Position numbers and translations under genes: made by a program
Part shown: in pieces, positions 5,465-54,337 of the stretch
Layout of the letters: each line of letters opens with the position of its first letter
Numbering within the stretch: position 1 is the stretch's first letter
Source: a virus
Length of the DNA stretch: 64,000 nt
Reading direction: 5' to 3' (one strand)
Virus record (IMG/VR): IMGVR_UViG_3300045988_083782
The notes under the pieces: model-generated
Databases searched by the model: none
What the model was told of the DNA's origin: nothing
What the model saw: the letters and a program-made list of their open reading frames with translations, nothing else

Positions 5465-6438
5465 ATTTTTTTCTTTTTTAGTTCTTTATCTAGCCATTGG
5501 CTAACTTCTTGGAATGATGTACTCTTAATAGAATCAGAGACATCTTTAGAGTGAAATTTCTTATGCATTAACATGACTTCTAAGTCATATTGTTTACCTA
5601 TTTTACGACTATACTTAACACCAGCTTTATCTCTATCAAATAGTACGATAATACGCTTAAATCGCTTCTTTAGGTCCTCTAAGACTACATTAGGTATAAA
5701 TGTGGATTCACTTGATGGAGATATAGCACTATATCCCATTTCATGCAAACACATTACATCCTTCATACTCTTAGTAATAAACAGTATATCACCAGAATCT
5801 GGCAATTGTTTAAAACCTTGAATATCCATTTCGGTTAAGTTATTACGCCATTTCGTATACTTATCTCCTAATGGTCTATATATCTTAAAGTTGTTATATA
5901 CCTTATAGGCATACATAGGATTTTCATTCTTGTAAACTCCTTTAACAATACCATTACATAAATAGTATTTAATACTAAATACATCATATTTCTTTAGTGT
6001 ATCTAGGGAAATATTAAACTGAGCCCAGTAATTGATATCAATTTGTGTAAAGTCTTGCCTTACGATACCAATTACTGTCTCTGTTGACGGTATATATTGC
6101 TTAGAGCTAACGAGTTTTGTTTTGTTGGTAATCTTTAGTTTGTCTACTATATCCTTTAGGATTTCATTGTAATCTGTAATACCAGTATATAATGAAACAA
6201 ACTTTATTACATTACCACATTCACCTGTTCCATGATCCTTAAATAAGAGTTGTTTGGTACGCTTACTATAATATATTCCAAATGAAGGATTCTTATCCTT
6301 TCTAAATGGACTATTATAGATCATACCTACTTTAAAGCTACCAATATACTGAGCATATATGTCATACTCAGTTACTTTAGATAGTATATAATCTAAAGTA
6401 ATATTAGTAGGTAGTTTTACTCTTTTTTTATCGTACAT
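5461..6438 (-). CDS. DNA primase (Toprim type)
   Basis: SPFRKDKNPSFGIYY primase-like N-terminal motif; Toprim-like ILFITKSMKDV and VLFDRDKAG. Confidence 0.7.
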   Translation of the reverse strand: MYDKKRVKLPTNITLDYILSKVTEYDIYAQYIGSFKVGMIYNSPFRKDKNPSFGIYYSKRTKQLLFKDHGTGECGNVIKFVSLYTGITDYNEILKDIVDKLKITNKTKLVSSKQYIPSTETVIGIVRQDFTQIDINYWAQFNISLDTLKKYDVFSIKYYLCNGIVKGVYKNENPMYAYKVYNNFKIYRPLGDKYTKWRNNLTEMDIQGFKQLPDSGDILFITKSMKDVMCLHEMGYSAISPSSESTFIPNVVLEDLKKRFKRIIVLFDRDKAGVKYSRKIGKQYDLEVMLMHKKFHSKDVSDSIKSTSFQEVSQWLDKELKKKKI

Positions 6439-7126: not shown

Positions 7127-7930
7127 TTAATCCTCTTCCTCTACATCATCATTAAACAAACGGGAAATACTCCGCAGTTTGTGTGCAGCATCTCCTGTGG
7201 TTAAACATTCACCTCTGCCGATATAAATATCTTGTTTGGTTTCTGTATATTTAACTGAAGCAGATGCTCCCATACAGGGATCTACGTAGAATTTAGCAGC
7301 TCTGAATTTGAACATCCAGAATCTAAACATCCACGAAGATACTGAAGTTAGAATTAATGGTTTAATTAGAGTTTCCTCTGGCTTCTTTACCATTACTTCT
7401 ACATGCAACAAGTCAATATCTTCACCTCTATAGGATCCAACGTTTTTAGTATCTGTATAAACAGAAATACCAATTCTATAACCTTGATCCTCTAGATAAT
7501 CAACAAGTCGCATTACTGTATAAGCTCTGATCATTAATGATTCAGAGCTACACCAGGAATTTTCACAAATACAAACATGTAAATTAATAAACTTACCTTG
7601 TCCAGCACCGTGATTTCGTATACGTTTTTTCATGGCAGGCATCCGTTCTAAGAACCGATCATAATTCATATCATCGCCATCAAATTCGTCATACTTATAT
7701 TTCTTTCTTGAACCTCCAAGAAATAAATCTTCTTCGATTTTCTTAAGATTATCTAGACCTTCTTTGTAAGAAAACTTACTTTCTAGAATCTTTTCTCTAG
7801 ATAGACCTACCCATTCTGGATCGTTTCGTCTATCCATTTCTTCCCATATATTCAGTCGACCGGTTTCTTCAACTTTGTCGGCTTCAATATAGAACTGTTC
7901 TACACTTGGTAACTTAATAGATAAATTCAT
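7127..7930 (-). CDS. hypothetical protein, translationally coupled to the upstream AAA ATPase
   Basis: 267-aa ORF. Its ATG overlaps the TAA of gene 7930-9219 by 1 nt. Confidence 0.5.
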   Translation of the reverse strand: MNLSIKLPSVEQFYIEADKVEETGRLNIWEEMDRRNDPEWVGLSREKILESKFSYKEGLDNLKKIEEDLFLGGSRKKYKYDEFDGDDMNYDRFLERMPAMKKRIRNHGAGQGKFINLHVCICENSWCSSESLMIRAYTVMRLVDYLEDQGYRIGISVYTDTKNVGSYRGEDIDLLHVEVMVKKPEETLIKPLILTSVSSWMFRFWMFKFRAAKFYVDPCMGASASVKYTETKQDIYIGRGECLTTGDAAHKLRSISRLFNDDVEEED

Positions 7931-12973: not shown

Positions 12974-15109
12974 TTAAAATAACGATAACTGTCTTGGTTT
13001 TAAATCTTCGATTATCTTATAGCATTCTCTTAAATAATATCTATAATTAATCTTACGATCTTCTATTGGTTTATCATCGAACATATTTAGTAGAGTAACA
13101 CCAGATGCCGTAAGCATATTCTGATACTGTTTAGTATCAGGTACTAAAGGTGGATTATACGGATCTTTACCTTCTTGAATTAAACTCCAATATGCCATAT
13201 CTGATAATTCGCTTGGATTCCAAGCATAGTGTTCTCCTATTCCTTTCCATTTCCATAAATATGCACCATCTGTAGATGCATAGAAACGATTCGTTCGCTG
13301 TATTTCTTGATTCATGTATTCAACATGCCACTGTTTACCAGTCTTTTCAGACATCAAGAATTTCTTAATATCTGTGCAACCTTTAACAGTGTCTTCAACA
13401 GGAATTCCATCTACAAAATACTTTATAATAGCTTCAGGTATGATTTTAGGTGATAAACCCTTACCTAGTAATACTTCGGTAATAAACATTCCTTTAGTTT
13501 TTATATAGTCTTTGCGAATTTCATCCATATTTCTGTATGTTTCTCCTTTTGCATTCGTAGCTCCATACTTAATATGATCTCCTGTTTTAGGATCCATTAC
13601 TGCTGTAAAATCTCTGAATTCATGCTTTTTCTTAGCATAACCTTCTTTTACTGCAATATAGTCATTGATCGCATATTGATACATAGCCTCAAAACGATCT
13701 TCTTCTAATGTTAGTTTAGTTAATTGTTCCCACTCTCTACATACGATGTTTACTTTATCATATACAGATTTCTTAAGTAAGACAAATAAACCATCAGTAT
13801 TTGCTTGTACTATTCGGCACCCTAGCTCTACTAATTTCTCTGCTAACATTAATAACAATAACTGTCCATTAATACGTATTTGCATTACTGCAAATGGACT
13901 ATAACAGAAGTTATGTTCATTTTGAAGATTACCACTCAAACCATTAAGTGCTAACTTCAATGTACTATCTTTAATTTTATCTCCGTTATGTTTAGCTTCT
14001 ATTCTTTCAGATCTAATCTGAGAATATACTTCTAAGAATTCTGGACCTAAATGTTTAGGATAAAATCCATATTCTATCAACATACTTGGATATAGTGACG
14101 CTACGTCAATATCGATAAGCATTTCATCTTCTGCTGGAATTATTATTTCAGGATCATTCTTAGAATGAATCCCACCAACTCCAACAGTATATCTCAATCC
14201 ACCAAATACAAAGTTCTTTTCATAACCTTTTCTGCCAGGAGAAACTACTTGAGTTTTCATTTCATCTAGTATAGATTTAAGTATAGGACTATCGTATTTA
14301 ATAAAAGGTAATATAACATCTTTCAGTGGTATATAGGCTTGAGGAGATCTTAAGTCTTTAATATCCCACCATGTTAAGCCTGTCTTTTCAAGATATTTGT
14401 GAGTTAGAATTTTCATTCCAATATTCACTCCATCTTTACTAAGAACTTTTACACCATACTCGTCTTCAATAGCTAATCGCAAATCAATATCTTTCTTACA
14501 CCTATCAAGTAATGCAGAAGTAGATTCAATATCATTGATATTATAATCTATCATACTGTCAAAATCTTCAATAGGCAAAGGCTTACTCCAATCACATACA
14601 AATTCCTGTACATTCTTGTATTGCATAGTAACCTGAATTTCTTTCAAGCCTACTCTAAGTTTATTAGAGTAAAGCATAGTGAGAATATCAAAGCTATCAA
14701 ACCATACTTGATATTTCCATCTTTTCCATTTTTCTATATTCTCTCCAGAGTTGGTAATCTCTCTACTTAGATTGAATATAGAATTAGTAATTACAGGTAC
14801 AGGATTTTCAGCAAGTACATGTTCATACTCTATAATGTAATTGATGACAGGATTATCATAATGTAAATTGTTATAACCGCAGAATATTTTATCTGAGTCG
14901 ATACTACAATTCGTAGTATAGTTATCATTCCATGAAACAGGCAAATTTACTTGTTTAAAGAACGATATAAGTTCAGATAACTGATTTTTACGAGGAGATA
15001 TTTCAAACTTATGTATTTCTTTTGTTTCTGTATTAATAGCAGAACAATGAAAGATATTTTGAAATACTTCGATATCATATACAAATACGGTTTTACCTCT
15101 GATTTGCAT
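12974..15109 (-). CDS. family B DNA polymerase
   Basis: Exo I VYDIEVF, Exo II HYDNPV, Exo III YNINDIEST, motif A DVASLYPS, motif B KLALNGLSGN, motif C QANTDGLFV. Confidence 0.9.
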   Translation of the reverse strand: MQIRGKTVFVYDIEVFQNIFHCSAINTETKEIHKFEISPRKNQLSELISFFKQVNLPVSWNDNYTTNCSIDSDKIFCGYNNLHYDNPVINYIIEYEHVLAENPVPVITNSIFNLSREITNSGENIEKWKRWKYQVWFDSFDILTMLYSNKLRVGLKEIQVTMQYKNVQEFVCDWSKPLPIEDFDSMIDYNINDIESTSALLDRCKKDIDLRLAIEDEYGVKVLSKDGVNIGMKILTHKYLEKTGLTWWDIKDLRSPQAYIPLKDVILPFIKYDSPILKSILDEMKTQVVSPGRKGYEKNFVFGGLRYTVGVGGIHSKNDPEIIIPAEDEMLIDIDVASLYPSMLIEYGFYPKHLGPEFLEVYSQIRSERIEAKHNGDKIKDSTLKLALNGLSGNLQNEHNFCYSPFAVMQIRINGQLLLLMLAEKLVELGCRIVQANTDGLFVLLKKSVYDKVNIVCREWEQLTKLTLEEDRFEAMYQYAINDYIAVKEGYAKKKHEFRDFTAVMDPKTGDHIKYGATNAKGETYRNMDEIRKDYIKTKGMFITEVLLGKGLSPKIIPEAIIKYFVDGIPVEDTVKGCTDIKKFLMSEKTGKQWHVEYMNQEIQRTNRFYASTDGAYLWKWKGIGEHYAWNPSELSDMAYWSLIQEGKDPYNPPLVPDTKQYQNMLTASGVTLLNMFDDKPIEDRKINYRYYLRECYKIIEDLKPRQLSLF

Positions 15110-17081: not shown

Positions 17082-17618
17082 CTACTTTTCCTCGATATAA
17101 AGATCTACTGGAATACATCCTCCACCTAGATCAATTCCGATTGTAGTCTTACCTACTCTCCGGTAATTTGTCCCTTGGTCTTTACAGCTATTGTTGTCAG
17201 GTTGCCGTAATTCACCTCCACGTTTGAGTTTATATTCGCCTTCCGTTACACCTAGAATAGCGTTTAAAAACAATCTGTCCACGACGTAATCATAGTTCTT
17301 ACTGTCAATAGCATGATCTACAATCTCGTCCTTAATTGCATCCCGGAATCTACTCGAAGCCGGTGTATACCGAGCAAGTGCATCTCTAATAAGAAACGCT
17401 AGATCCGAAAATGACATAGTTCTTTTATGACCATAGCGGAAAAGCCATGCCCACCAAGTATCTGGAACAGATCTGAAAGTTGTCGACCCATCATCTTTGA
17501 TAACTACAGATGCTGCTTTTTCTCCATTTACAAGAACTAATTCACCAATGCGCGGATCCTCTAAGAGTAATCGAAGTAGTTTTTTACGGGATTCAGAAAT
17601 TAACTGTACTCCTTTCAT
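17082..17618 (-). CDS. hypothetical protein (annotated stop is TAG; read-through would add 15 codons to TAA at 17037)
   Basis: 178-aa ORF. The stop triplet on the plus strand is CTA. Confidence 0.5.
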   Translation of the reverse strand: MKGVQLISESRKKLLRLLLEDPRIGELVLVNGEKAASVVIKDDGSTTFRSVPDTWWAWLFRYGHKRTMSFSDLAFLIRDALARYTPASSRFRDAIKDEIVDHAIDSKNYDYVVDRLFLNAILGVTEGEYKLKRGGELRQPDNNSCKDQGTNYRRVGKTTIGIDLGGGCIPVDLYIEEK

Positions 17619-17625
17619 AGCCTAC

Positions 17626-18162
17626 TTACTCCTTCAATCCGAGTGACCGGTAATATTCGTCGTTGTTCGTTACAAGAATTTTGTTGATGTCGTCATAAGC
17701 CGAAGACCAGCCAACAATCTCTTCCAAGAGATCATCTGCTTTCTTCTTCTCGATCTTGTTCAGCTTAGTAACAACATCAGTCAGGCGATTGAGATCCCGG
17801 AAGAACGTAGTTTCCTTGGTATCTTCCATTTTCTTAATAGCAGCCGTAACGGTTTCCATAGATACTTCTTTAAACTCACACGGAGCAAGCGGGAACTGCA
17901 AGGTAGTATCACCATTCAGAGTAATAACCATACCGTTTTCATCCGGAAGTGGATCGAGTTTAGCAGAAGTAATGTCAATCATTTTGATTGAATATTTCCG
18001 TAAGGGCTTAGTAAGCCGTAAGAGACCTTCACGTACTTTGTCATTGTGACTCAGGTCCATATTGTCAGCTTCGATGCAACACAAAGTTTGACCAATAAGA
18101 TTCCAAGTAGCCAGAATAGCCCGGTACTTGTTCATGTCGAAATTAGAATTGTTAGTTGCCAT
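17626..18162 (-). CDS. hypothetical protein
   Basis: ORF 17626-18240; preferred start is MATNNSNF at 18162, preceded by AAGGAAC. Confidence 0.5.
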   Translation of the reverse strand: MATNNSNFDMNKYRAILATWNLIGQTLCCIEADNMDLSHNDKVREGLLRLTKPLRKYSIKMIDITSAKLDPLPDENGMVITLNGDTTLQFPLAPCEFKEVSMETVTAAIKKMEDTKETTFFRDLNRLTDVVTKLNKIEKKKADDLLEEIVGWSSAYDDINKILVTNNDEYYRSLGLKE

Positions 18163-20250
18163 AATTTTTTGTTCCTTTCTTGATTTATACCCTTTTTGAT
18201 GGGGTGGATTAATAACTAGTTTTACTTTTAAAATTCGCATGTTACTCTTTTCTCTTCAATTCAGTTAGTCTGCTCAGTCTCTTAGAGCCGCTTTAAAAAA
18301 GCTATGAAAGTAGACAGATGGAATTGGTCAATTCAATGACTTAGAGTAACACTACGCATCCAAAATCTGTAAATGTTTGATAATTTTGGTAATTTCTATT
18401 GCCGTAAAAATATCGAAAACAAAAATAAGATATGTAATGTCACTGTATAATAGCTGTGACACATGCCCGGATCAGACCTTCTTTTTACTGTAGCTGATCA
18501 ATCAATACGAAACAGTTTTTTGTGCCTAGTTCATATCACTATTAGATGCAATATAAACAACTTATCATCAATTCAACGAATCTCCAAGTATATTAGCATT
18601 ACAACAATCTAAGCGATTGAGGGACTTTTTATCTAAAAGTTGCAAAACTCACAAGCTGTCCGATTTTTCAGGACACCCACTTGACCTTATCAGGGATTCT
18701 TTATTTATAGTACTCGAATACTTAGGATTTCCACCTAATCAGCCTTAATGGAGGCCTCAGCGTTCTCTTACATATAATGTTGCGCATTATACTTTACGAG
18801 TTTCTTATGTCAGCGTAACGGTTGGTACTCAAAGAGTAAGGAATTACTCAAATTAGTTCTTTACAAATTCATCTATACTCGTAAGTATAAACTTCATGCA
18901 GGTGATTTACTAACAATACTCTTTAATGCTTTAAGTTAAACATGTTCATTCTCTCCTTATTTGGTATAGCTGTTCGTTTCAGCGTAGGCACTCTCCAACG
19001 AGTTCTTACAATCCTTATGTTACCTCACATACAGGAACGCTCGTCAGGGCAATACACAGAATTGCTTCTGCTTCGTGTCGGCCCCTTATGATCTCTTGCT
19101 TCGCTTCATACTGGATGTATGCGCTGCTCACTTGAGAAAACTTAGTTAAAGATACTTTGCTTACTTTGTCTGAAATTCATACGTAGTTCCAGTCCTACGG
19201 TCTCGCATTTCCTCTTACAAATATAATCCTTATACTAATCAGATTATACACAATTCAGACTTATTGCGGCCTCAAATCGCAAGTTAAGATTATATCCCTG
19301 TTGCAAAGCACTCTAGGGTTTTATAGTGACATCACTTAACATAGTCACTCTTTGCAGTTAAATACTTCAAATCACTTTGCCCTAATGGACAATACAGTGT
19401 TGCAACTGTAAGTATGAGCTGTAGACACGCAATTTACTTCTCAGACGCTAACTCTAGGTTCACATCATTACGTATAGGTTTGGCACCTAATCCGGGTAAC
19501 CTGTCATACACACTATCTAACAACGATAGTCTTGCATATGGGCCATAGCCACTCAGCCATGTCAATTTCTAGTGCTAATTTAACTTCAAAAATTCTACCT
19601 TCAGATGTATTACTTTAAATCTACCTTGTAGACTCACTTCCAATTAAATGATTTCAATCCAACGAGGTGCTATTACTCCTCTTATTAAACTATATAGACA
19701 GTATAGTCTAATATTTCATTAGTCAACGTGATAATACAGAAACACTGTAGTAGTATATGCTTTATGCTCTTACACCTAAGTAAGTGGGCAAAGGAGGGTT
19801 TGGAGCCAATCCTTAGAACGTTAGTCAGTTCATGATTACAAACATCTTTTTTTGTGACCACTCGTGTTATCGTTCCTTCTTGATTTCATCTTTGAGTTGA
19901 TCCACGAACGATTACGGAAGTTAACGATACTCCCTGCTTTGTTTAGTCTCTGCAATCTGCTCACTGCATATCACTGCGTCTTCAGTCACCAATCCGGTTC
20001 TCACTATGGGTTATGCACGCTCTCCCATTTTCCTATTATATTCTTCATGTAGATAAGTAATCAATCTACTATAATAGGTTATCATACTATAGTTATAACT
20101 TGTAGTGGTAGCTACTTATTAAACATTTCAGTATCATGTATTACTTATAATCTATCTGCAACTGATCAGGTCTAAACAGAATGTCGTAGCATTTACGATG
20201 CCCTTCGAATGTAATTCTATAGCTCTTATATACCGCTTAATTACTCTCTA

Positions 20251-20637
20251 TTAGCGGTCGCCGTTTCTCTTCGGGCTAAGATTTAATCCAAGTTGTGGAT
20301 TAGGAAGCGGCATAAGCCGATTAAGCAATTTTGTTGTCTTAATAGTATTTTCTACATAAACCTCCTTTTCTACTTCTTTTGTTATATACTCTAGACGTGT
20401 CTCAACATCTTTTGTTATGGTCACAGTAGCATCTGCGGATGTTTCTCCTACAGTTACTTTGTCAGTTCTGAGATCAATATTCAGAGCTAGGTTCTTTCCA
20501 TTGTTAGGTACGTCTACCACACGAGGAATAACCATTTCTCCGGCTTGAACTGCCTGACTTGGGGTAAATGGATCATATCCAATAAACCCTCCGAAAATTA
20601 CTGCAAATGCAGCAATTGCCAAATTTCTGAGCTTCAT
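20251..20637 (-). CDS. secreted or membrane-anchored protein
   Basis: N-terminal MKLRNLAIAAFAVIFGGFIG looks like a signal peptide or anchor. Confidence 0.5.
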   Translation of the reverse strand: MKLRNLAIAAFAVIFGGFIGYDPFTPSQAVQAGEMVIPRVVDVPNNGKNLALNIDLRTDKVTVGETSADATVTITKDVETRLEYITKEVEKEVYVENTIKTTKLLNRLMPLPNPQLGLNLSPKRNGDR

Positions 20638-20648
20638 TGATTGATGCT

Positions 20649-22142
20649 TTATTCGGCATACGCGGATTTGTCAACGTAATTAGTAAGACGATTAACCGGC
20701 GCGTTGTACAGTTTACTGATTTCTGCAATCTTGTCTTTCAGGATAGATTCAGAATCACCGTACGCAGCGGATAATTTCTTATAAACGTTGTCGCCATTGA
20801 CGGTTTCAAAGGGCTTTTTGTCCTCGTCTACAATCTGGATTTTCTTTTCCTTCTTGAGAACACCGTCAAGAACGTTCTGCTGCAATCCCAACTTAATATT
20901 ATGAGTTACGATTACTAAGTTATTAGCAACACCTGTTTCAGTTGCTGCAATGTCTAAACGTCCTTTAGCTTTTTCATTCCACGATGCACATTGTTTTTCA
21001 ACATGACGACTGATAAATACTTTTACCAGCTGTGAAATATTTTTATCATCTGCTGTAGGATTCCAAGCCTTCAACAGAGCATGAGGTGCAAGAACAGTAT
21101 GCTCAGAATTGAGACTACCATACATTGCACTGGTTACGGCATCAAGTGCGCCGTTCCAGGAGCTACCAACTTTAAGCATAATGAATGCAAGAATCTGTGC
21201 CGGAAGAGAATCTTCCATGCTATAAGCTACACGACACCATTCAATTGCTTGGTTGATCTTTCCAAATACACTTTTGTTCGTAGTTGACTGAACAAGAATT
21301 GCACGAAGGACCTTCTCCTTCTCTGATTCTTCCATATCCTTATTCGGTTCAGGAATTGCTGCTACCTCTGTACGGGCTCTAGCATCGGCTTTTGCAGCTT
21401 CCTTAACCTCTTTAGGAATGTTAGAACCAGTGAAGTCAATTACCATCTGCTGATCATTCTTTTTGTCAGGCAACGCTTTCAGTTCGATACCCCACATAGC
21501 TTTAGCTTCCTCTTGCAAGGCGTTAAATACATCGCGGTTAACACGAACACCGAACGTTTGCATGTCTGCTTCTACCTGAGCTCCGTACAAAAGGATTTCA
21601 GACATCAACAGACCACGATAGTACGTTTTAGCAGCTTTACGAGCGGGTTCGCTGAGAGTATCGTCTTTGACGAATTCATCTGCAAACATCTTCATCAACG
21701 TAATACCGCTATCATGACTAATGCGGTCATTGCCTCCGGCTTCTAACAGACCCTTACCAATGTCTACCGGTTTGTTTTTAGGATCCTCTACTTTGACTTC
21801 CGGAGCGGGGACTTCAACCTTTGTTTCCTCAGGTTTCACTTCCTCGGCTACAACAGTTTCAACTTTCTCAGCCTTCGGTTTGATATCAACCTTAGGCTTA
21901 TCTTTTGCTGCGGCTTTTTCCTGTTTTTTATCTTTTGCTTTCTCAGCCTTCGGTTTCTCTATTTTCGGAGTTTCCGGAGCTGGAGTTGGTGCCGGCGTAG
22001 GAGCAGGCTCTTCTACAGGTTTTTCCACTTTAGTTTCTACTTTTGTAGTTTCTACTTTATTAGTAGGTTCAGCTGTTGCTACTTTAGTTGCATTTGCTTT
22101 CTTAGCAGCTAATGTTGCTGCTTTCTTTCTGTTCTTAGACAT
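20649..22142 (-). CDS. protein with a Lys/Ala/Pro/Glu-rich low-complexity N-terminal third
   Basis: 497-aa ORF with APTPAPTPAPE and repeated KPKAEK/KVE units, followed by a globular C-terminal part. Confidence 0.55.
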   Translation of the reverse strand: MSKNRKKAATLAAKKANATKVATAEPTNKVETTKVETKVEKPVEEPAPTPAPTPAPETPKIEKPKAEKAKDKKQEKAAAKDKPKVDIKPKAEKVETVVAEEVKPEETKVEVPAPEVKVEDPKNKPVDIGKGLLEAGGNDRISHDSGITLMKMFADEFVKDDTLSEPARKAAKTYYRGLLMSEILLYGAQVEADMQTFGVRVNRDVFNALQEEAKAMWGIELKALPDKKNDQQMVIDFTGSNIPKEVKEAAKADARARTEVAAIPEPNKDMEESEKEKVLRAILVQSTTNKSVFGKINQAIEWCRVAYSMEDSLPAQILAFIMLKVGSSWNGALDAVTSAMYGSLNSEHTVLAPHALLKAWNPTADDKNISQLVKVFISRHVEKQCASWNEKAKGRLDIAATETGVANNLVIVTHNIKLGLQQNVLDGVLKKEKKIQIVDEDKKPFETVNGDNVYKKLSAAYGDSESILKDKIAEISKLYNAPVNRLTNYVDKSAYAE

Positions 22143-22213: not shown

Positions 22214-22609
22214 TCAACTATCATCTATATAACCACATTTTTCTCTCACTGTAGGTAATCCTTCTGTTTCAGCGATAGAGTTGTCACTTTCTAATAATAT
22301 AGGCTCCTGACTCACAGAGTCTTGTTCAGCTAATTCTGCATTCCATACAACGGATGTAGAATTACTCTGTGTGGGATGATTAGAAATCTCTACTGCTACT
22401 ACAGCTTTCTCAGGAGTTTCCATTAATTTCTTAATGTGTTTTACTCCTGCACCTACAACTAAGCCTAATACTAGTAACATAATAGCTCTAGTAAAGACTT
22501 TTGGGTCCTTCATGCACATCGCGATTACATAAAGAACGACTATTGCAAAGAGCAATAATCCAACTACATTTGCCATAATTTGTAAGTATTGGTTATTTAT
22601 AATCTTCAA
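22214..22609 (-). CDS. membrane protein, candidate anti-sigma factor
   Basis: Two hydrophobic segments. It overlaps the 3' end of the sigma factor gene by 17 nt, the usual sigma/anti-sigma arrangement. Confidence 0.4.
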   Translation of the reverse strand: MKIINNQYLQIMANVVGLLLFAIVVLYVIAMCMKDPKVFTRAIMLLVLGLVVGAGVKHIKKLMETPEKAVVAVEISNHPTQSNSTSVVWNAELAEQDSVSQEPILLESDNSIAETEGLPTVREKCGYIDDS

Positions 22610-23144
22610 AAAGTTGTCTTAGTTTTGCTCTTGCCTTATTGAGACACGTTTTCACGGTTGCCTCAGGAATAGCAAGCTCTTCGGATATTTGATGGTAAGA
22701 CTTCCCATCTAGGCGAGCATAGATAAGATCCCTATACTTCTTACGAAGCAATGGAATACATTTCATAATAACTTCTACATTCTGACTTAAAATCATCTGT
22801 TCTTCAGGGCTCTTTGTATTAGAATCAAGTTGACCAGTATATTCATCATCATCAATATAGTTGTTAAGTTGCTCTTTTTTAGTTCTTCTTATATAGTCAA
22901 TTGAAGTATTAACAGCAATTGTTTTTAACCACATTTCAAATGAAATATGACTTACATAAGTTTGAAGCTTCTCGTAAACCTTTGTAAATACTACTGATGT
23001 TAAATCATCTGCTACATCACTGTTTTTAACAATGTTATAAATAGTAAACCAAATAGTTTTATTATACTTTTGATATAACTTTGAGAATGCTTTCTCAGAA
23101 CCGTCTCTAGCTTGCTCTACTAAAAGTTTTTCTTCCTCTTTCAT
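22593..23144 (-). CDS. ECF-type sigma-70 family RNA polymerase sigma factor
   Basis: Region 2: LVEQARDGSEKAFSKLYQKY...DLTSVVFTKVYEKL...WLKTIAVNTSIDYIRR. Region 4 HTH: SYHQISEELAIPEATVKTCLNKARAKLR. Confidence 0.75.
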   Translation of the reverse strand: MKEEEKLLVEQARDGSEKAFSKLYQKYNKTIWFTIYNIVKNSDVADDLTSVVFTKVYEKLQTYVSHISFEMWLKTIAVNTSIDYIRRTKKEQLNNYIDDDEYTGQLDSNTKSPEEQMILSQNVEVIMKCIPLLRKKYRDLIYARLDGKSYHQISEELAIPEATVKTCLNKARAKLRQLFEDYK

Positions 23145-25126: not shown

Positions 25127-25440
25127 TTATTAAGTTCTAATATTTTACAGGGTCGAGAGCTTACAACAACACCTAACCAATTTATTACACGCAGGGATAT
25201 GACGTGGCTTTTTACGGCATTAGCTTAGCCGTTTGACTATTCTCAAGCACTCAGGCGAGTATAGTCAGATACGAAAGTTTTGCCAGTTATTGGCTTTATT
25301 GACCTATTCATTCTCTTCTTATCGCTGTCAAAAACCATAATGCCCCAGGTTTATACCGTTCAAAGATTTAAGAACTTGAAGCACGGTATCACACTATCAA
25401 AAACTCTAGTTCTATTTCCTTAGTAGCTTTTAATAAAGCG

Positions 25441-25553
25441 TGGAGCATGAGGGGGTCGAACCCTCGTCCAAACGACGAATCAAATGACCTAACAGTCAAT
25501 GTGAATAGGCAGTTAACCAAAACTACCTACTCTAATATAAACAAATACTCTCC
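25441..25553 (-). ncRNA. long tRNA-like element (113 nt)
   Basis: 5' GGAGAGT ... GAGGG TTCGACC CCCTC ATGCTCC A 3'. The acceptor pairs at 6 of 7 positions (one of them G-U, one A.G mismatch). The T-arm is canonical and the interior is unresolved. Confidence 0.3.
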
Positions 25554-26511: not shown

Positions 26512-26908
26512 TATAGTTATTTAAACGAAATTCAAAAAGAAGACTACTCTACTTATTTCTAATACTTATTCGTAGATAACCCTTTTCCTTCTCCTGACCC
26601 TATTATAGGGTTGACCGTTGTATAGTCCATAGTACTCTAGCTCACGCTTGTGGCTTCCTTTAGGGGTTTGGTATATTTGTAGTCTTCGGGGGACTGGTTC
26701 ACCATTTACTAACATTTAGTTGAGTAAAAAACCTACAGTCTATCTGGCGGAAATCCTGTAGTTCAAAAATTGTAAACTGTAATCCGATCATTGATTGCAA
26801 TTCTGCAAAGCACTTCTACGGTCATACGGATCCATTTTACGGATCTTTTTAGTTGAACGTTTTCGTGCCTGAGCTTTCTGAGAAAGCTTTGAGCCTGGAT
26901 ATGAGTCC

Positions 26909-27627: not shown

Positions 27628-27980
27628 TAATTTGATGACGTCTACTATTCTGCACCATAGTAGAATGTTAATAAAGACAACTCTTTGTCTTGGTATTATG
27701 CAGATACCACGTTTGCTACATACACTAACTTATTAAGCATGAAATCTTGTAACTAATTAATCTTAACTCCCACTAAGCACTTTTAAAGTTATGCAGAAAT
27801 CACGTGGAAATGAAATCTTACTAACTACCTGATTTTTACGTCCGCACGATCATAAGTATAGATGTAATAACTCTTTGCACGTCACGATACATCTACGTGA
27901 ACAGTGACTGATCTGAGTTTCTAATATACTTACTTACGCCCCACAGGTTTGTCATTTTCTGATGATTTAAAGTAATTTAA

Positions 27981-30260: not shown

Positions 30261-30395
30261 AATATCTGTATATTTATAATTATAAATGTTTACAAATAAA
30301 AATAGCAATACCTACTTCACAGTAGCATTTGCTATTAAGAGTTCTCCTTCTATCGAGTTAATAAAACGAATACATACAATCACGCTTGATTGTAG

Positions 30396-30477
30396 TGCTA
30401 GTTCAAGGATTCGAACCTCGATGGATTCCTCCACATTCTCAATGAGAATGCGCGTCTACCAATTCCGCCAAACTAGC
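30396..30477 (-). tRNA. type II (Leu-like) tRNA-like gene with aberrant, fully self-complementary anticodon arm (formal anticodon AUU, C33)
   Basis: GCTAGTT TG GCG-GAATTGGTAGA-CGC G CATTC-TCATTGA-GAATG TGGA-GGAA-TCCA T CGAGG-TTCGAAT-CCTTG AACTAGC A. The D-arm is that of tRNA-Leu. The segment CATTCTC ATT GAGAATG can close to a 7-bp stem with a 3-nt loop. Confidence 0.55.
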
Positions 30478-31399: not shown

Positions 31400-32169
31400 T
31401 GTGTTGATATAATAGTTAGATACCTAAAGAAATTTGACACTTATTGTTCAGTTAGTGTCAGACTGTCAAGCACCTCATTAAGCATATCGAGGTAATAGCT
31501 TATTCCCATCTATACTTGCTTTGGTTAGTTGCTACTAAAGGATGCACTCACAGCGAACCTAACTGTGTCCTTACCATATGGTTTTACTATTATAATCTAT
31601 TAATGTGCATTTTACACCTAAAACTTAAAACTAAAGGAATTCTCTACTCTGGCATTATGACCCTAGGGATCAATGTTGTAGTAGCTAAGTATTTATGTGG
31701 ATAGTCCACAACCTTTAGATTCACATAAGAAACTGGTGCCCTCAATGTCTTGGGAAGTTATTGAGTTTTTTAGAGTGAGATACACATTAGGCAAAGCTCT
31801 CGAGTTTGTACGTGAGAGAGTACACAGATTTATAAAGGTCTTATATGCCCTTTTGACCTATAAATTCAATATAAGGCTTTGTAATTTCATCAAAAGCCTT
31901 TAGAAAACTTCCAGTATTTCACTATGACTGCATTTCACATAGTGTTACTTGAATCTCGCTCAAGTGCAAAGTTCTAATCTCGTAGAACACAATATAGACT
32001 ATTATTCTCTGGTCTATAAGCAGATAGTAACAAGCTCTTCGCTTCGGTGGTCTATGTTACCTAACCACGCTAAGACTTACATAGATTTTCACTATCGCTT
32101 AGTTTTCTATTAAATGATCATGATTATGAAAGTTTAGAGTATATACGCTTTCAACTTTTTAAATGATAC

Positions 32170-33704: not shown

Positions 33705-33963
33705 ATCAATCTTGGTTGGTTACACATATAAAACGTAGTAAAGTAGATGGTATATCTACACATTAACAAGCATTAACTATTATATAAAAGGCAATAAGTA
33801 AATAGTTAAAAACTGTTAATTATAGTACAAGTTAGTACAACCTAAGTAAGAACTTATACGTTTATAGGGGAGTAAGAGGGGTTAGTAATTACATAGTATA
33901 TACATACTAATTAACTAATAATCTACTCTTACTTTACTAATTACTTTATAATAATTATATACT
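33705..33963. promoter_or_regulatory. divergent intergenic control region between the minus- and plus-strand blocks
   Basis: 259 bp of very AT-rich non-coding DNA from which genes run outward in both directions. Confidence 0.35.
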
Positions 33964-34185
33964 ATGGCAAATAAGATATTAAATACTAGTAAGAGACGAC
34001 CAATTGCATATCCGGGTAAATATGTAGATGTAAATGGTAAAGACTTTTTCTTAGCAATGGAGACAGATCAAAGTAGCTGTAAAGGGTGTGCTTTCCTGAA
34101 TACAGGATGTGATGCAAATAGAACTGCTTACTGTACTCAGGGTTATATTTTCAAAGAAGTAATTTTAGATTTAAATAAAAAGTAA
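33964..34185 (+). CDS. small Cys-rich protein, tandem paralog 1
   Basis: SSCKGCAFLNTGCDANRTAYCTQGYIFKEV. Confidence 0.5.
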   Translation: MANKILNTSKRRPIAYPGKYVDVNGKDFFLAMETDQSSCKGCAFLNTGCDANRTAYCTQGYIFKEVILDLNKK

Positions 34186-34397
34186 TGTACATATACGATA
34201 AAGAGTTAGCTGAGATTATTAAGAATAATATACCAGTTGAGATAAATAGTAAACAGTACTTAATTGAAGCTAATAAGTCTGGTAGTTGTGATGGCTGTGC
34301 ATTTGGTGATCTAACAAAGTGTCCTTCTAGAGCTGTGCATTTTTGTTGCTCAAATGGTGGCAATATCCTTAAAGAAGTGAAACATACTAAGAAATAA
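34185..34397 (+). CDS. small Cys-rich protein, tandem paralog 2
   Basis: GSCDGCAFGDLTKCPSRAVHFCCSNGGNILKEV; ATG overlaps the previous stop. Confidence 0.5.
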   Translation: MYIYDKELAEIIKNNIPVEINSKQYLIEANKSGSCDGCAFGDLTKCPSRAVHFCCSNGGNILKEVKHTKK

Positions 34398-34412
34398 TAC
34401 GTTTATAATTAC

Positions 34413-39015: not shown

Positions 39016-39090
39016 TCTCCTATGGTGTAATGGTTAGCACAGGAGGCTCTAACCCTCTTAGTCTGAGTTCGAATCTTAGTGGGAGTACCA
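39016..39090 (+). tRNA. amber suppressor tRNA, anticodon CUA (reads UAG), probably Gln-type
   Basis: TCTCCTA TG GTGT-AATGGTTA-GCAC A GGAGG-CTCTAAC-CCTCT TAGT CTGAG-TTCGAAT-CTTAG TGGGAGT A CCA. The anticodon loop CU-CUA-AC has U33 and A37. The D-arm UGGUGUAAUGGUUAGCAC resembles tRNA-Gln genes as I recall them. CCA is encoded. Confidence 0.85.
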
Positions 39091-39347: not shown

Positions 39348-41432
39348 ATGGAAGACAGATAGATAGTAAGCAAGATTGATTTTTATAAGCCTATTAAGAA
39401 TAGCAATAAGTTCAGAAAGCCAGCTCTATAGTACATAGAGACTGGCTCTTATTGTTCCTACCCTAAGAATACTACAGAGTATTTTCAATTCTGGGATAAG
39501 GAAATTAGATATTGTATAGATGGTTATACTGCTGAAGACGGTGATTGGATAAGCGGGTATAACTATTTTTATTTGAACTATTGTCCTATCTCTAGAGTAG
39601 TGTATGAAACATATACAGATAGATTTGGCAATCAAAAGAAACGCAAAGTAAAGAAAGTAGAATTTGCTGATTTCTGGGATTATGATTACTATTACTTTAC
39701 TGCTATATAGGAAGCTGAAGAATCAGGTACACATATGTGTGTATTAAAAGCCAGACGTCGTGGTTACTCCTTTAAAGGTGCAGCTATGGCTTGCCGTAAC
39801 TATTATCTAATACCAGATAGTAAGACATATATATATGCATCAAATAAACAGTATCTTACTGAAGATGGTATTCTTACTAAAGCGTGGGACTACATGGACT
39901 TTATTGATAAGAATACAGCTTGGGGTAAGAAAAGATCTGTTAATACTTAGATGCGTAAACGTGCAGCTGTTAATGTTAAAGACGAGTATGGTAATGAAAT
40001 AGAATTGGGTTACAAATCTGAAATCATTGGTGTTACTCTAAAAGACAATCCTGACGTAGTACGTGGTAAATCAGGTAAGCTTATCTTATTTGAGGAAGCA
40101 GGTTCATTCAGTGAATTAGGTGCAGCATGGCAGATTGCTAGACCTTCTGTAGAACAAGATGGTGTAGCGTATGGTCTTATGTTAGCATTTGGTACTGGTG
40201 GTGACCCTTCTTCAGCATTTGATACACTGAAGGACATGTTCTATAATCCTAAAGGCTATAATTGTTTAGGCTTCTAGAATATATGGGATGAAAACCCAGG
40301 AGATAAACCGTGTGGATTCTTTGTGCCACAGTATACTAATATATCTGACATGGACGATAATGGCAATCGTCTGTATATGGATGTAGATGGTAATACTTTG
40401 CATAAAAAGTCAATAGACAGAATATTAGACTTACGTAGAGATGTAATAGAAAATGCTACTAGCACTACAGCTGTAGATAGATATGTAGCAGAGCGACCTA
40501 TTACACCTGCTGAAGCAATGCTCGAATTTAATGGTAACATCTTCCCTAAGAAAGAATTACAAGCACATTTAGCTATGATTCGTACCAATCGTAGTCTACA
40601 AAATCACAAACAAGTAGGTGACTTGGTGTTTGGTGATGATGGCTTACTTAAGTGGATACCTAAGAAGAGAGGCGACATTACTAAATATCCGTTAAGTAAA
40701 GATGATGACCCTACTGGTTCAATAGTAATATGGGAACACCCAGTATAGGACGCACCTGTTGGATTGTACATAGCGGGTATGGACCCGTATGACCATGATT
40801 AGGCTGGTACTAATTCATTAGGCTCTATGTTCATTTACAAGCGATTCTAGAGCTTTGAAGAATATTATGATATAATTGTTGCTGAGTATACTGGAAGGCC
40901 TTCTACAGCAGAGGAATACTACGAGAATGCACGTAAACTATTGCTTTACTATAATGCTAGATTGATGTACGAAAATGAACGTAAAGGCATATTCCCATAC
41001 TTTACTGCTAAACATTGTGATTACTTACTAGCAGATCAACCTGATATCATTAACGACATTGTTGGTAACTCAAAAGTATAGCGTAGAAAGGGTTGCCATA
41101 TCAATAAGTAGATTAAGGACTGGGGTGAAGGTATGATAAAAGATTGGCTTAACGAAGAGTATGCTCCAGGCAAAAAGAACTTAACCAAGATACTATCAGA
41201 ACCGCTATTGGAAGAACTTATAGGTTATAATGACAAAGGAAATTTCGATAGAGTGTGTGCGTTAATATAGCTAATGATTTATAAAGAACAACTACATAAT
41301 TTAGTTGTTAAAGAAAAGACTAAAGAGAATAGGAATAGGATATTATTTGATGGGCCAATATTTGCGCAACAGTGGTCAGATGAACCAAGTATGCCTAACC
41401 TATTTAATGATTCAAATACGTATACGTTTTAA
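39348..41432 (+). CDS. terL: terminase large subunit, at least 10 in-frame TAG sense codons
   Basis: Single frame from ATG 39348 to TAA 41430. ORF-track pieces 39735-39950, 39951-40277 and 40323-40748 are all in this frame. ATPase region VLKARRRGYSFKG and nuclease-domain GMDPYDHD. Sits directly upstream of the portal gene. Confidence 0.8.
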
Positions 41433-41434
41433 TT

Positions 41435-43936
41435 ATGAATAACATTAACATATTTCCTGCATAGAAAGTACCTATGTCTAAAAAGACCAAGGAATGGAAA
41501 GAAAGCTGCGTGGATTATATTATTGGTCACAGTGCCTCTTCCAGAAATGGTAATAGTAGGAGTAGGGAAGAAGAGATGCAGACATACTATGATCTGTATA
41601 ATAGTATATACAATGAAAAAGATCTAAAGTATGTTACTAACCCATTTAAACAAGATGATGGGTTTCCTGCAACTGCTTAGGATTATAATATTATTAAACC
41701 AAAGATAGATCTATTACTTGGAGAAGAGACTAAGCGCCCATTCAACTTTAGAGTAGTAAGAACTAGTGATATTGCTACTAGTGATCTATAGGATAAAGCT
41801 AAACAATTACTTATTGATTATGTATAGGCATCTATTATGTCTAAACTTGGTCCCGAAGAGTAGGCTAGATATCAAGAGGCTTTACAGTCTGGTGAGATAA
41901 TGACACCTGAGTAGATACAGAAATACTTAACAAAAGATTATAAAGATATTGCAGAAATTGCAGCACAACATAGTCTAAACTATTTGAAGCAGAAGTTAAA
42001 TGTTACACATGAATTCTTCAAGGGGTGGAAGGATGCATTGATAGCTGGAGAAGAGATTTACTATGTAGGGGTAATTAATGGGGAACCTTATGTTGAAAGA
42101 GTAAATCCACTAAGTTTCAGTTATGAACAATCTGCTGATTTAGAATTCATTCACGAAGCATCTTGGTGCTGTCGTAAAATGAATATGTCTGCTACTGAGA
42201 TCTATGACAGATTCTATGATAAAATGTCAGAGAAGTAGTTAAACGAATTGCTGGATATGATGGATGATGGTACCAGAGGAGGACTTAATCCACAGGTTCG
42301 TAAGACATCTTTAGACTATCCGCATATTAAAACTAGAACTATTAATGGTTTTAGTTCTAACCCATTTCAAAATGCAGATAATATCAATGTATGGCATTGT
42401 TGTTGGAAATCGTTTAAGAAGATTGGATTTGTTACTATCTTTAACCCTGAAACTGGGGCAGAAGAGGAATTTGAAGTAGATGAAAGTTATAAAGTTACAG
42501 GTAGGGAAGTTAACGTAGAATGGACATGGATTATCGAAGTATGGGAAGGATACAGAGTTGGAGAAGACCTATATATAGGTATACAGCCAGTTGAGTATCA
42601 ACATATCTCAGCTGATAACCCTAATTCGCAAAAACTGCCTTATACTGGCGTAGTATACAACAATACCAATAGTTCTCCTAGGTCCTTAGTTAGTATGATG
42701 AAACCATTACAGTATATGTATATTGTAATATGGTATAGACTTGAGCTAGCAATGGCTAGAGATAAAGGTAAAGTAGTAACTATGGATATTACTTAGATAC
42801 CTAAAAGCATGAATATTGATGTAGCAAAGTGGATGCATTACTTAGGAGCTTTAGGTGTTAACTTTGTAAACCCATATGAAGAAGGTTGGGATATACCTGG
42901 TAGAGAAGGTGGTAAGCCATCACAGTTCAATCAGATTACCGCATTAGATCTTACTATGGCTAATACTATTGATCAATACATTAACCTGATGGATAAGATT
43001 GAATCAATGGTATCCGAGATTACTGGTGTTACTAAACAAAGAGAAGGAGCAATTTCATCTAATGAATTAGTAGGTAATGTTGAAAGATCTGTAGTACAAT
43101 CCGCTCACATTACTGAACCGTTATTCTGGGTTCACAATCAAGTAAAGAAAGAAGTATTAAGTATGTTACTCAATACTGCCAAGTTTGCATGGAAAGATGG
43201 CGATAAGAGATGTATACATTATGTATTAGATGATGCTACACGTGCATTCTTGACTCTTAATGATGACTTCTTCTATGAAGATATGGATATCTTTTTGGAT
43301 GATTCTACTAAGAATCAGCAACAGTTAGAAGCACTTAAACAGCTTATGCAGCCTGCTATGCAGAATGGTGCTAGTCTATTAGATATCGCCGAAATCATTA
43401 CAATGGATAACATTAATATGATTAAGAATCGCTTAGAAGACATTGAACAGAAGCGTATGGAACAGCAGCAAGCTTTGGAAGAGCAACAGGCTCAGAGAGA
43501 ACAGCAGATGATCCAAATGCAGAATGAAGTTAAGGAAGAGGAATTGATGATAAAAGAAGCAGAGATGGATCTTGAAAAGTATAAGATAGATTCAGATAAC
43601 GCTACTAGGATTACAGTTGCTCAACTTCAGGCTTACAGAGGATTAGAAGATCAAGATTAGAATGATAATGGTATTCCAGATACTATGGAAATCGCTGCAC
43701 AAGCTTTAGCTGAACGTAAACAGGCATCTGAAGAAGCTGGTAAACAATTTGAATTCAATGCTAAACTTCGTGAACAATAGATGAAGAAAGAGATTGAAGA
43801 CAAGAAGATTCAGCTTGAAAGAGAGAAATTAACAGCTGCTTAGAAACTACAAAAACAAAAGGATGAAGCGGCTATGCAAAGAGAAAAACTTAAAGCAAAG
43901 ACATCCCTAAAAAATAAAGTAGTAGGAGAGAAGTAA
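41435..43936 (+). CDS. portal protein (putative), TAG-recoded
   Basis: Single frame. Pieces 41474-41680, 41984-42238, 42248-42796 and 42809-43660 are joined only by TAG, with real stop TAA 43934. About 830 aa, immediately after TerL. The alternative start is 41474. Confidence 0.65.
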
Positions 43937-44349: not shown

Positions 44350-44351
44350 TT

Positions 44352-44882: not shown

Positions 44883-44965
44883 GTTGCGGAGGAAAGAAAT
44901 CCAGCTCTACCAAAGGTAAAGGTGGAAAGAAAAGCAAATAATATTAGTAATTAAAATTAAACAAT

Positions 44966-45199: not shown

Positions 45200-45237
45200 A
45201 TAGATAGGCATTTAAACAAAGAATACAATAGTATAAG

Positions 45238-54279: not shown

Positions 54280-54300
54280 TATTAAATTTCAGTGTACCGT

Positions 54301-54337
54301 AAAGGGGGTTGGGGGTAAAACCCTGACTCCCTTTTTT
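54301..54337 (+). terminator. Rho-independent terminator
   Basis: AAAGGGGG...CTCCCTTT with an inner GGGT-AAA-ACCC, then TTTTTT. Confidence 0.55.

What the first reader, a model, noticed from the sequence alone, without database searches (positions are those of the whole stretch)
18241..20250. 2-kb ORF-free island inside the early block
No ORF of 60 aa or more lies on the minus (transcribed) strand, and only one 62-aa plus-strand ORF is present. I checked the first 60 nt on the minus strand and found TAA or TGA in all three frames, so TAG read-through does not rescue coding. The sequence is of ordinary complexity with no obvious tandem repeats, and it looks less AT-rich than the flanking genes. 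It contains many short hairpins. Two kilobases of non-coding DNA is unusual for a tightly packed phage. Candidates are a large structured ncRNA (phage-associated large RNAs such as GOLLD or ROOL are a precedent), a replication origin region, or a decayed gene.
Basis: seen in the sequence. Interest (0 to 1): 0.65.

Follow-up and report, generated by a model that had tools for sequence, protein, structure and literature searches.

The report
Giant conserved RNA in crAss-like phages
The 2-kb gene-free stretch is not junk or a dead gene but a very large folded non-coding RNA gene, kept at the same spot in a whole family (Suoliviridae) of abundant gut crAss-like phages, matching no catalogued RNA family and of unknown function.

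Summary
Window 18241-20250 has no ORF of 60 aa or more on the minus strand, one 62-aa ORF on the plus strand, and stays closed under any single stop-codon reassignment.

The window is a crAss-like phage of the family Suoliviridae. A gap of 2.0-2.8 kb sits at the same syntenic position (sigma factor, three hypothetical genes, gap, two hypothetical genes, then DNA polymerase) in every relative examined. These are 15 GenBank genomes from all subfamilies, 120 IMG/VR contigs and 7 phage contigs mis-binned in MAGs.

The gaps are collinear homologues. Their nucleotide identity (59-82%) is far above that of third codon positions in the flanking genes (39-49%), and substitutions show no 3-base periodicity.

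Twenty helices (96 pairs) spread over about 1.5 kb are 94% canonical, against 35-44% in slid controls. Sixty-four pairs show compensatory changes. G-U outnumbers A-C 191 to 26, which places the RNA on the window's minus strand.

No Rfam 15 family matches (GOLLD, ROOL, group I and II introns included). There are no repeats and no GC-skew switch. I found no mention in the searchable literature.

Verdict: a new, very large (about 1.6-1.9 kb) structured ncRNA class. Its function is not known. It may be one RNA or a fixed array of several RNAs.

The parts
18241..20250 (-). ORF-free interval between two conserved hypothetical genes; contains the RNA gene
   Evidence: no ORFs under any code; a single collinear nhmmer match of the 27-sequence profile at 20274-18170.
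18530..20150 (-). Conserved core of the RNA (about 1.6 kb): islands of 75-96% nucleotide identity across subfamilies, and 20 covarying helices from 20134 to 18625
   Evidence: Conservation profile; collinear blastn blocks; helix list; covariation controls.
19979..20141 (-). 5' domain. It contains helices ATAC/GTAT (20134-20131 with 20087-20084), GTAG/CTAC with a CUAMCA loop, and AUGGG/CCCAU (20028-20024 with 20010-20006), plus the invariant GAGAACCG (20002-19995).
   Evidence: Covariance model R1 gives 110.5 bits, E about 5e-18, and is the only hit in the window.
19472..19493 (-). The most conserved hairpin, GGAUUAGG-UGCCAAA-CCUAUAC. The stem covaries (AGGU/ACCU to AGGA/UCCU). The 7-nt loop resembles a T-loop (my inference).
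   Evidence: the motif retrieved 120 of 120 true homologues; helix at 19489-19475.
18723..18740 (-). Second hairpin of the same type, GAUUAGG-UGGAAAU-CCUA, inside the 3' domain
   Evidence: repeat D2; pairs 237-239 with 247-249.
18625..18829 (-). 3' domain. A long-range helix AGUAC/GUACU (18829-18825 with 18713-18709) encloses several hairpins. It is followed by hairpins at 18683-18652 and 18639-18625.
   Evidence: 23 of 25 pairs with compensatory change.
20232..20258 (-). Hairpin ACCGC...GCGGU overlapping the stop codon of the upstream gene. The stem covaries in relatives (CAGCGG/CCGCU, CAGUGG/CCACU). It may be the 5' boundary or a processing signal.
   Evidence: Sequence; alignment columns 101-150. 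Its role is an inference.
18406..18462 (-). Candidate intrinsic terminator: hairpin GUGUCAC...GUGACAU followed by a U-rich tract. It would give an RNA of about 1.75-1.85 kb.
   Evidence: The consensus terminator scan did not call it. Conservation in relatives was not examined, so this is an inference.
18327..18340 (-). Conserved hairpin GUCA-UUGAAU-UGAC (GUGA/UCAC in other subfamilies) in the 3' tail
20251..20637 (-). Upstream neighbour: a 128-aa hypothetical protein with an N-terminal hydrophobic segment. It is syntenic with the RNA in all relatives.
   Evidence: no Pfam or PHROG match.
20649..22142 (-). A 497-aa hypothetical protein with a roughly 150-aa Lys/Pro/Glu-rich disordered N-terminus. 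It is syntenic with the RNA. A role as RNA partner is possible but untested.
   Evidence: no family, no fold match.
17626..18240 (-). Downstream neighbour: a 204-aa hypothetical protein, syntenic with the RNA

Best explanation
The interval is the gene for a very large, highly structured non-coding RNA. Its core is about 1.6 kb and the whole is probably 1.75-1.9 kb. It is read from the window's minus strand, the same direction as the surrounding replication and transcription-module genes. It is a signature element of the crAss-like phage family Suoliviridae.

Shown: the sequence is under strong purifying selection, it is non-coding, and it folds into at least 20 helices that are maintained by compensatory substitutions. 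These helices are interspersed with invariant single-stranded stretches.

Inferred: the transcript accumulates as a stable folded RNA that acts through its three-dimensional shape. It would serve as a scaffold or ribonucleoprotein core, possibly self-assembling like the phage-associated GOLLD and ROOL RNAs, and it would serve phage genome expression or replication during infection. It would not act as an antisense regulator or a DNA site. The specific biochemical activity is unknown.

My confidence that it is a structured ncRNA gene is about 0.9. My confidence in the scaffold/RNP mode of action is about 0.35.
For: (1) Synteny and ubiquity. The same 2.0-2.8 kb annotation-free gap sits between the same genes in cr115_1, cr114_1, cr125_1, cr55_1, cr50_1, cr52_1, cr4_1, cr53_1, cr6_1 and cr131_1. 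All gaps lack long ORFs under the standard code and with TAG or TGA read through.

(2) Homology. The conserved blocks are collinear. The nhmmer profile gives one full-length hit in each of 120 IMG/VR loci and 7 MAG contigs. CM R1 gives exactly one full-length hit in each of 90 sources.

(3) Selection. Gap identity is 82, 80 and 59% against 49, 47 and 39% at third codon positions of the neighbouring gene. The flanking protein is only 19-34% identical.

(4) Non-coding. None of 20-31 windows shows 3-nt periodicity, against 11-25 of 26-39 windows in the flanks.

(5) Covariation.
- 24 pairs are 97% paired against 34-49% when slid, with 118 compensatory cells against 3-27, and 0 of 500 shuffles reach this.
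- 23 of 25 pairs are compensatory.
- 96 pairs are 94.4% paired against 35-44%. 64 pairs are compensatory against 12-23 when slid and 38.8±2.9 when shuffled.
- with 54 distinct sequences, 99.3% are paired against 37-54%.

(6) Strand. G-U outnumbers A-C 191 to 26. The same helices are only 87% canonical on the other strand. The consensus energy is -119 for the sense strand and -101 for the antisense strand.

(7) No antisense targets were found in the window.
Against: There is no direct evidence of transcription, ends or abundance.

The single-sequence folding energies are only weakly better than shuffles (z = -1.97 and -0.92).

I found no convincing helix linking the 5' and 3' halves. The long-range 4-bp stacks are at chance level, so the element could be several adjacent RNAs.

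The alignments have about 25 independent lineages in a handful of clades, so shuffle statistics overstate significance. The slid controls do not have this weakness.

The scaffold/RNP function rests on analogy only. The neighbouring proteins gave no clue.
Confidence: 0.85

Rival explanations
1. The interval is a fixed array of several independent smaller structured RNAs, each about 100-400 nt. They would be transcribed together and processed, and would not form one giant RNA.
For: All well-supported helices are local or close domains of 250 nt or less. No credible pairing between the 5' and 3' halves was found. The same early block carries other small ncRNAs and self-cleaving ribozymes: tmRNA, RAGATH-7, RAGATH-9 and Hatchet. 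A 22-nt motif occurs twice, 531 nt apart.
Against: Order, number and total length (2.0-2.8 kb) are invariant in more than 130 genomes. No gene is ever inserted between blocks and no block is ever lost. No internal promoter, terminator or ribozyme is detectable. The 22-nt duplicate is specific to the window's lineage.
Confidence: 0.25
2. The interval is a replication origin, or a primer-RNA region for the nearby DNA polymerase module.
For: It lies about 3 kb upstream of the DNA polymerase gene inside the replication block. A transcript could in principle prime replication.
Against: There are no iterons, no tandem or inverted repeat families and no AT-rich unwinding element. The GC-skew slope is unchanged across the region, and the only skew switch in this part of the window is at about 34 kb. 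Strand-specific compensatory changes that include G-U pairs are a signature of RNA, not of DNA sites.
Confidence: 0.05
3. The interval is a very long structured 5' leader that regulates the downstream 204-aa gene in cis.
For: It is on the same strand as that gene and immediately upstream of it. Most relatives have a conserved hairpin next to that gene's ribosome-binding site.
Against: A leader of about 1.9 kb with at least 20 conserved helices and no known riboswitch or leader motif would be without precedent. A terminator-like hairpin with a U-tract lies about 165 nt before the gene. The RBS-proximal hairpin is missing in the window's own lineage.
Confidence: 0.05
4. The interval is a decayed gene, or a protein gene hidden by recoding, introns or frameshifts.
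For: The phage recodes TAG in its late genes. Group I introns are reported to be common in this ('Delta') phage group (PMC7886860).
Against: No relative has an ORF here under the standard code or with TAG or TGA read through. Substitutions show no codon periodicity. The region evolves much more slowly than neutral sites. No intron family matches. The flanking ORFs are complete genes with their own start and stop codons.
Confidence: 0.02

Closest known systems
GOLLD RNA (Rfam RF01998)
   Same: It is a large, intricately folded ncRNA carried by phages or prophages, with unknown function and many conserved helices alongside conserved unpaired nucleotides. tRNA genes lie nearby in some relatives. 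That GOLLD forms RNA-only multimeric assemblies comes from the abstract of PMC12286853, seen.
   Different: There is no sequence or structure homology. No Rfam hit appears at E<=10 in the window region or at E<=1 in six relatives. The element here is about twice as long as GOLLD (about 800 nt, from my own knowledge). The host phage group is different (Crassvirales of Bacteroidota). Oligomerisation was not tested.
ROOL RNA (Rfam RF03087)
   Same: It is a gut or rumen-associated, phage-linked, large ornate RNA of unknown function.
   Different: It is not homologous. ROOL is about 580 nt (my own knowledge), so the element here is about three times longer.
Group II introns, including ORF-less and circularly permuted forms
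   Same: They are large multi-domain RNAs with conserved unpaired core nucleotides. Introns are reported to be frequent in this phage group (PMC7886860).
   Different: No match to the domain V/VI or D1-D4 models was found. The element does not interrupt a gene, because the flanking ORFs are complete and separate in all relatives.
RAGATH-7, RAGATH-9 and Hatchet RNAs in the same genome
   Same: They are structured RNAs in the same early, minus-strand block of this phage. This shows that the lineage invests heavily in ncRNAs.
   Different: They are small (140-200 nt), catalogued families located 6-13 kb away. None overlaps the element.

Membership tests
Structured non-coding RNA (general) | Base pairs maintained by compensatory substitutions beyond what controls give | tested here: met
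   94-99% canonical against 34-54% when slid. There are 118, 339 and 141 compensatory cells against at most 59 when slid, and 0 of 500 shuffles reach the observed values.
Structured non-coding RNA (general) | No protein-coding signal | tested here: met
   no ORFs; no 3-nt periodicity.
Structured non-coding RNA (general) | The RNA is transcribed and accumulates | not testable with these tools
   No RNA-seq was available. The strand was inferred from the G-U over A-C excess, 191 to 26.
GOLLD (RF01998) | Match to the family covariance model | tested here: not met
   No hit at E<=10 in 17500-21000, and none at E<=1 in six diverse homologues.
ROOL (RF03087) | Match to the family covariance model | tested here: not met
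GOLLD/ROOL-like RNA nanocages | Homo-oligomeric RNA-only assembly | not testable with these tools
   This needs cryo-EM or native gels of the transcript.
Group II intron | Catalytic domain V/VI or the D1-D4 core | tested here: not met
   No RF00029 or group-II-D1D4 hits.
Group II or group I intron | Interrupts a host gene whose exons join into one ORF | tested here: not met
   The flanking ORFs have their own stop and start codons and are separate genes in all annotated relatives.
Phage replication origin | Iterons, repeats or an AT-rich unwinding element | tested here: not met
   GC is 0.364, above the window mean of 0.34.
Phage replication origin | Inflection of cumulative GC skew | tested here: not met
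   The skew is monotonic across 14-25 kb. The switch is at about 34 kb.
Pseudogene | Intact orthologous gene in relatives, with neutral decay | tested here: not met
   No relative has an ORF here. The region evolves far more slowly than third codon positions.

The most novel reading that the evidence does not exclude
The interval encodes a single RNA of about 1.8 kb. That would make it the largest non-ribosomal structured RNA known from bacteria or phages. It would have its own biochemical activity: catalysis, or self-assembly into an RNA-only or RNP particle. Such an activity would manipulate host translation or tRNA/RNA metabolism, or would be required for replication of Suoliviridae phages. 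The T-loop-like hairpins and the long invariant single-stranded segments are consistent with a tertiary core or a substrate-binding site.
Probability: 0.3. Interest if true: 0.92.

Novelty: new member of a known kind. Interest (0 to 1): 0.8.

Why it matters
Large, ornately folded non-coding RNAs are rare. A few bacterial and phage classes are known (OLE, GOLLD, ROOL, HEARO, raiA), and each has opened new biology or structural principles.

This element is two to three times longer than those classes (sizes from my own knowledge). [quoted passage not shown] It has been left blank in all annotated genomes I inspected.

It takes up about 2% of a tightly packed 97-kb genome. It evolves as slowly as first and second codon positions, so it is presumably important for the phage.

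It gives RNA structural biologists a ready target, because more than 130 natural variants are available for covariation analysis and cryo-EM. It gives phage biologists a new handle on the poorly understood early and middle programme of Crassvirales. It also provides a specific nucleotide marker (the covariance model or the 22-nt hairpin motif) for detecting Suoliviridae.

Tried and rejected
(1) Rfam 15. The gathering and permissive scans of the window region and of six homologues gave only noise (miRNA-like and Parabacteroides-1 hits at E about 1-7).

(2) Stop-codon reassignment and hidden ORFs: rejected.

(3) Protein-anchored retrieval of loci. An alignment of the 497-aa neighbour was too divergent to use. 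A single-protein query found only near-identical contigs. I replaced this with a DNA motif scan.

(4) Promoter and terminator consensus scans gave nothing above chance. Bacteroidota and phage-specific promoters are not covered by that tool.

(5) The 22-nt duplicated motif as a possible phage promoter. It occurs only twice, both copies are inside the region, and it is not conserved in other subfamilies.

(6) Long-range helices linking distant domains. The 4-bp stacks found are at the level expected by chance among 2345² column pairs, so I do not claim them.

(7) Thermodynamic z-scores are weak.

(8) Function of the neighbours. There are no Pfam, PHROG or PDB sequence matches. The 177 homologues are all 'hypothetical'. 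The AlphaFold model has pLDDT 56.7 and no Foldseek match at E<0.3.

(9) Bacterial chromosomal copies. The three non-phage motif hits (including a Bacteroidaceae chromosome) were chance matches with no profile or CM hit.

(10) Antisense targets within the window: none beyond chance.

(12) Literature. Eight full-text searches and three papers read (PMC7886860, PMC10136315, PMC8040213) gave no mention of a non-coding element in crAss-like phages.

Full report
**1. The observation**

ORF listing of 16-23 kb shows that between the minus-strand genes ending at 20251 and starting at 18240 the longest minus-strand ORF is 58 aa. The only ORF of 60 aa or more is a 62-aa plus-strand one at 19864-20052.

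Each minus-strand frame contains 24-26 TAA, 10-15 TAG and 18-25 TGA. Reading through any single stop gives at most about 100 codons. This matters because the phage has a tRNA with a CUA anticodon, and its plus-strand late block does close up when TAG is read through.

The stretch is the longest ORF-free interval of the window under either code. It has no tandem repeats or repeat families of note.

Its GC content (0.364) is above the window mean (0.34) but not above the immediately flanking genes (0.385 and 0.37). That detail of the finding is therefore only half right.

**2. What genome this is, and what relatives have at this position**

blastn against GenBank phages hit only crAss-like phages. 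The annotated neighbourhoods show the same gene order in every one. That order is an ECF-type sigma factor, a small hypothetical gene, a hypothetical gene of about 460-570 aa and one of about 130 aa. An unannotated gap of 2.0-2.5 kb follows, then two hypothetical genes of about 180-210 aa and, a few kb on, the DNA polymerase.

This holds for:
- cr115_1, cr114_1 and cr125_1 (Uncouvirinae)
- cr55_1 and cr50_1 (Boorivirinae)
- cr52_1, cr4_1 and cr53_1 (Loutivirinae)
- cr6_1 (Bearivirinae)
- macaque phage cr131_1, which its record labels Oafivirinae

. That is every subfamily of Suoliviridae.

A second blastn added cr60_1, cr113_1, cr109_1 and cr56_1.

All ten extracted gaps lack long ORFs under the standard code and with TAG or TGA read through.

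The window's own sigma factor (22593-23144) and DNA polymerase (12974-15109) were confirmed by Pfam and PHROGs. The four genes that bracket the gap have no family.

**3. The gaps are homologous and under strong selection**

Pairwise blastn of the window's gap against the others gives collinear blocks along the whole length. Short islands reach 81-96% identity even with other subfamilies. The adjacent 497-aa protein is only 19-34% identical.

I used the most conserved island as an IUPAC pattern.

An nhmmer profile of 27 non-redundant gaps then gave one full-length, collinear hit in every IMG/VR locus. It also hit 7 of the 10 'genome' stretches. Of those seven, five lie on contigs of about 98-100 kb and two on short contigs (3.6 and 7.8 kb), in MAGs labelled Bacilli, Sphaerochaeta, Gastranaerophilaceae, Clostridium and Thauera. 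I take them to be phage contigs that were mis-binned. The three others, including a Bacteroidaceae chromosome, are chance motif matches. So there is one copy per phage genome and no evidence of a cellular copy.

For moderately diverged genome pairs, gap identity is well above third-codon-position identity in the neighbouring gene:

| Genome pair | Gap identity | Third-position identity |
|---|---|---|
| L010 / L023 | 82% | 49% |
| L001 / L002 | 80% | 47% |
| window / L001 | 59% | 39% |

The gap evolves about as slowly as first and second codon positions.

Substitutions in the gap show no 3-base periodicity: 0 of 20-31 windows at p<0.01. In the flanking genes 11-25 of 26-39 windows do. The region is therefore constrained, but not as a protein.

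**4. The constraint is RNA secondary structure on the minus strand**

RNAalifold on the 27-sequence alignment favours the sense strand (-119 against -101 kcal/mol). It predicts many helices with several pair types.

Tool-verified counts:

- 5' domain (23 sequences). 24 pairs in 6 helices are 97.0% canonical against 34-49% when the 3' partner is slid by 1-3 columns. There are 118 cells with changes on both sides against 3-27, and no shuffle of 500 reaches the observed values.
- 3' domain. 23 of 25 predicted pairs show compensatory change. These include a long-range helix (AGUAC/GUACU in the window, CUGC/GCAG and CAAGC/GCUUG elsewhere) that closes a sub-domain of about 120 nt in the window and up to 230 alignment columns.
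- Whole element (26 full-length sequences, alignment A4). 20 helices with 96 pairs run from window 20134 to 18625.
  - They are 94.4% canonical against 35-44% (slid) and 79.9±0.5% (shuffled).
  - 64 pairs have compensatory changes against 12-23 (slid) and 38.8±2.9 (shuffled, maximum 46).
  - 339 cells are compensatory against 30-59 (slid) and 97±8 (shuffled).
- Strand. G-U pairs outnumber A-C mismatches 191 to 26. Read on the other strand, the same helices drop to 87% canonical.
- Covariance model of the 162-position 5' domain. It finds exactly one full-length hit in each of 90 sources, including the window (19979-20141, minus strand, 110.5 bits) and the divergent Oafivirinae genome (61 bits, E about 4e-9). 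On its alignment (54 distinct sequences) the four helices are 99.3% paired against 37-54%.

Between the helices lie invariant unpaired stretches:
- GAGAACCG (20002-19995)
- CUCCAAA (19805-19799)
- CAGUGUU in the window (UAGUGUU in most relatives) (19747-19741)
- CCAACCG (18825-18819)
- AGAGAACGCUGA (18768-18757)

There are also two similar hairpins with 7-nt UGNNA-type loops, at 19493-19472 and 18740-18723. Their resemblance to T-loops is my inference and was not tested.

**5. What it is not**

No Rfam 15 family reaches even E<=1 in the gap of the window or of six diverse homologues. That rules out GOLLD, ROOL, OLE, HEARO, group I and II introns, RNase P, tmRNA and rRNA fragments.

It does not interrupt a gene. 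It has no repeats, and the cumulative GC skew runs straight through it. The only switch in this part of the window is at about 34 kb, where transcription diverges.

It has no significant complementarity to the rest of the window.

**6. Extent and ends (inferred)**

The profile match spans 20274-18170. A covarying hairpin overlaps the stop codon of the upstream gene (20258-20232). The conserved core runs from about 20150 to about 18530.

A hairpin with a U-tract at 18462-18406 could terminate an RNA of about 1.8 kb. The simple terminator scan did not call it. One more conserved hairpin lies at 18340-18327. No promoter could be assigned.

**7. One RNA or several?**

All secure helices are local or close domains of 250 nt or less. 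The apparent long-range stacks are at chance level. The invariant order, copy number and total length in more than 130 genomes argue for a single functional unit, but a co-transcribed array of smaller RNAs is not excluded. I give that rival 0.25.

**8. Function**

Nothing in the neighbourhood helps.
- The four bracketing proteins have no Pfam or PHROG match, and the three I searched against the PDB (497, 204 and 178 aa) have no sequence relatives there either.
- The 177 homologues of the 497-aa protein are all 'hypothetical' on contigs of about 95-102 kb.
- Its AlphaFold model is poor (pLDDT 56.7, N-terminal 150 residues disordered and Lys/Pro/Glu-rich) and has no PDB fold match.

The best-supported mechanistic statement is therefore generic. 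A stable, intricately folded RNA acts through its tertiary structure as a scaffold or RNP, or possibly as a self-assembling particle or catalyst, during the early or middle phase of infection. I rate that specific reading at about 0.35.

**9. Novelty**

Eight full-text searches and a reading of the main crAss-like genomics paper, the 2023 Crassvirales review and the human-microbiome structured-RNA survey found no mention of this element. Those two crAss papers contain no occurrence of 'non-coding', 'ncRNA' or 'intergenic'.

GenBank annotations leave the region blank or place one spurious 53-aa ORF at its edge.

I class it as a new member of the known kind 'large ornate phage-associated ncRNAs'. 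The caveat is that, if it is a single molecule, it is far larger than any of them.

Noticed in passing
window 25152-25532, 26537-26697, 27827-27966, 30395-30477, 31435-31633 (all minus strand): The early block carries a string of other RNA genes: a tmRNA, RAGATH-9, a Hatchet self-cleaving ribozyme, an odd tRNA that ARAGORN calls Asn (anticodon ATT), and RAGATH-7. tmRNA and RAGATH-9 are also found upstream of the big RNA in relatives.
   Followed up: partly
window 39016-39090 (tRNA with CUA anticodon); plus-strand gaps 40749-41983, 44350-45447, 45703-46474, 54280-55232, 62912-63999: There is a suppressor-type tRNA reading UAG. The ORF-free gaps of the late, plus-strand block disappear when TAG is read through. 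This fits TAG recoding of late genes, as described for crAss-like phages (PMC7886860).
   Followed up: partly
window 33705-34408: This is the only other stretch with no ORF under either code. It sits exactly at the strand and GC-skew switch (the cumulative skew minimum at about 34 kb). It is a better candidate than the studied region for a divergent promoter region or a replication origin.
   Followed up: no
window 19605-19626 and 20136-20157: A 22-nt motif, AGRUAGAUUWWAAGUAAUACAU, occurs twice in the RNA, 531 nt apart, and nowhere else in the window (expected 0.02). The duplicate is only partly conserved in other subfamilies. Its meaning is unknown.
   Followed up: partly
L009 about 7190-7222, L011 about 5790-5819 and equivalents in other relatives: Most relatives have a conserved hairpin (CCGUAGGUGGAAUCAACCACGG) directly 5' of the ribosome-binding site of the gene downstream of the RNA. 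The window's own lineage lacks it. It could be a processing or translational control element.
   Followed up: no
L013 7031-7456 (cr53_1): An HNH endonuclease gene is inserted two genes downstream of the RNA in cr53_1, and the first downstream gene is doubled in length. Gene content around the RNA changes between genomes while the RNA locus itself is never interrupted.
   Followed up: no
Genome-contig loci L136, L139, L140, L141, L144: Complete crAss-like genomes of about 98-100 kb are binned into MAGs labelled Gastranaerophilaceae, Bacilli and Sphaerochaeta, including rabbit-gut samples. These look like binning artefacts, and they could mislead host assignment.
   Followed up: partly
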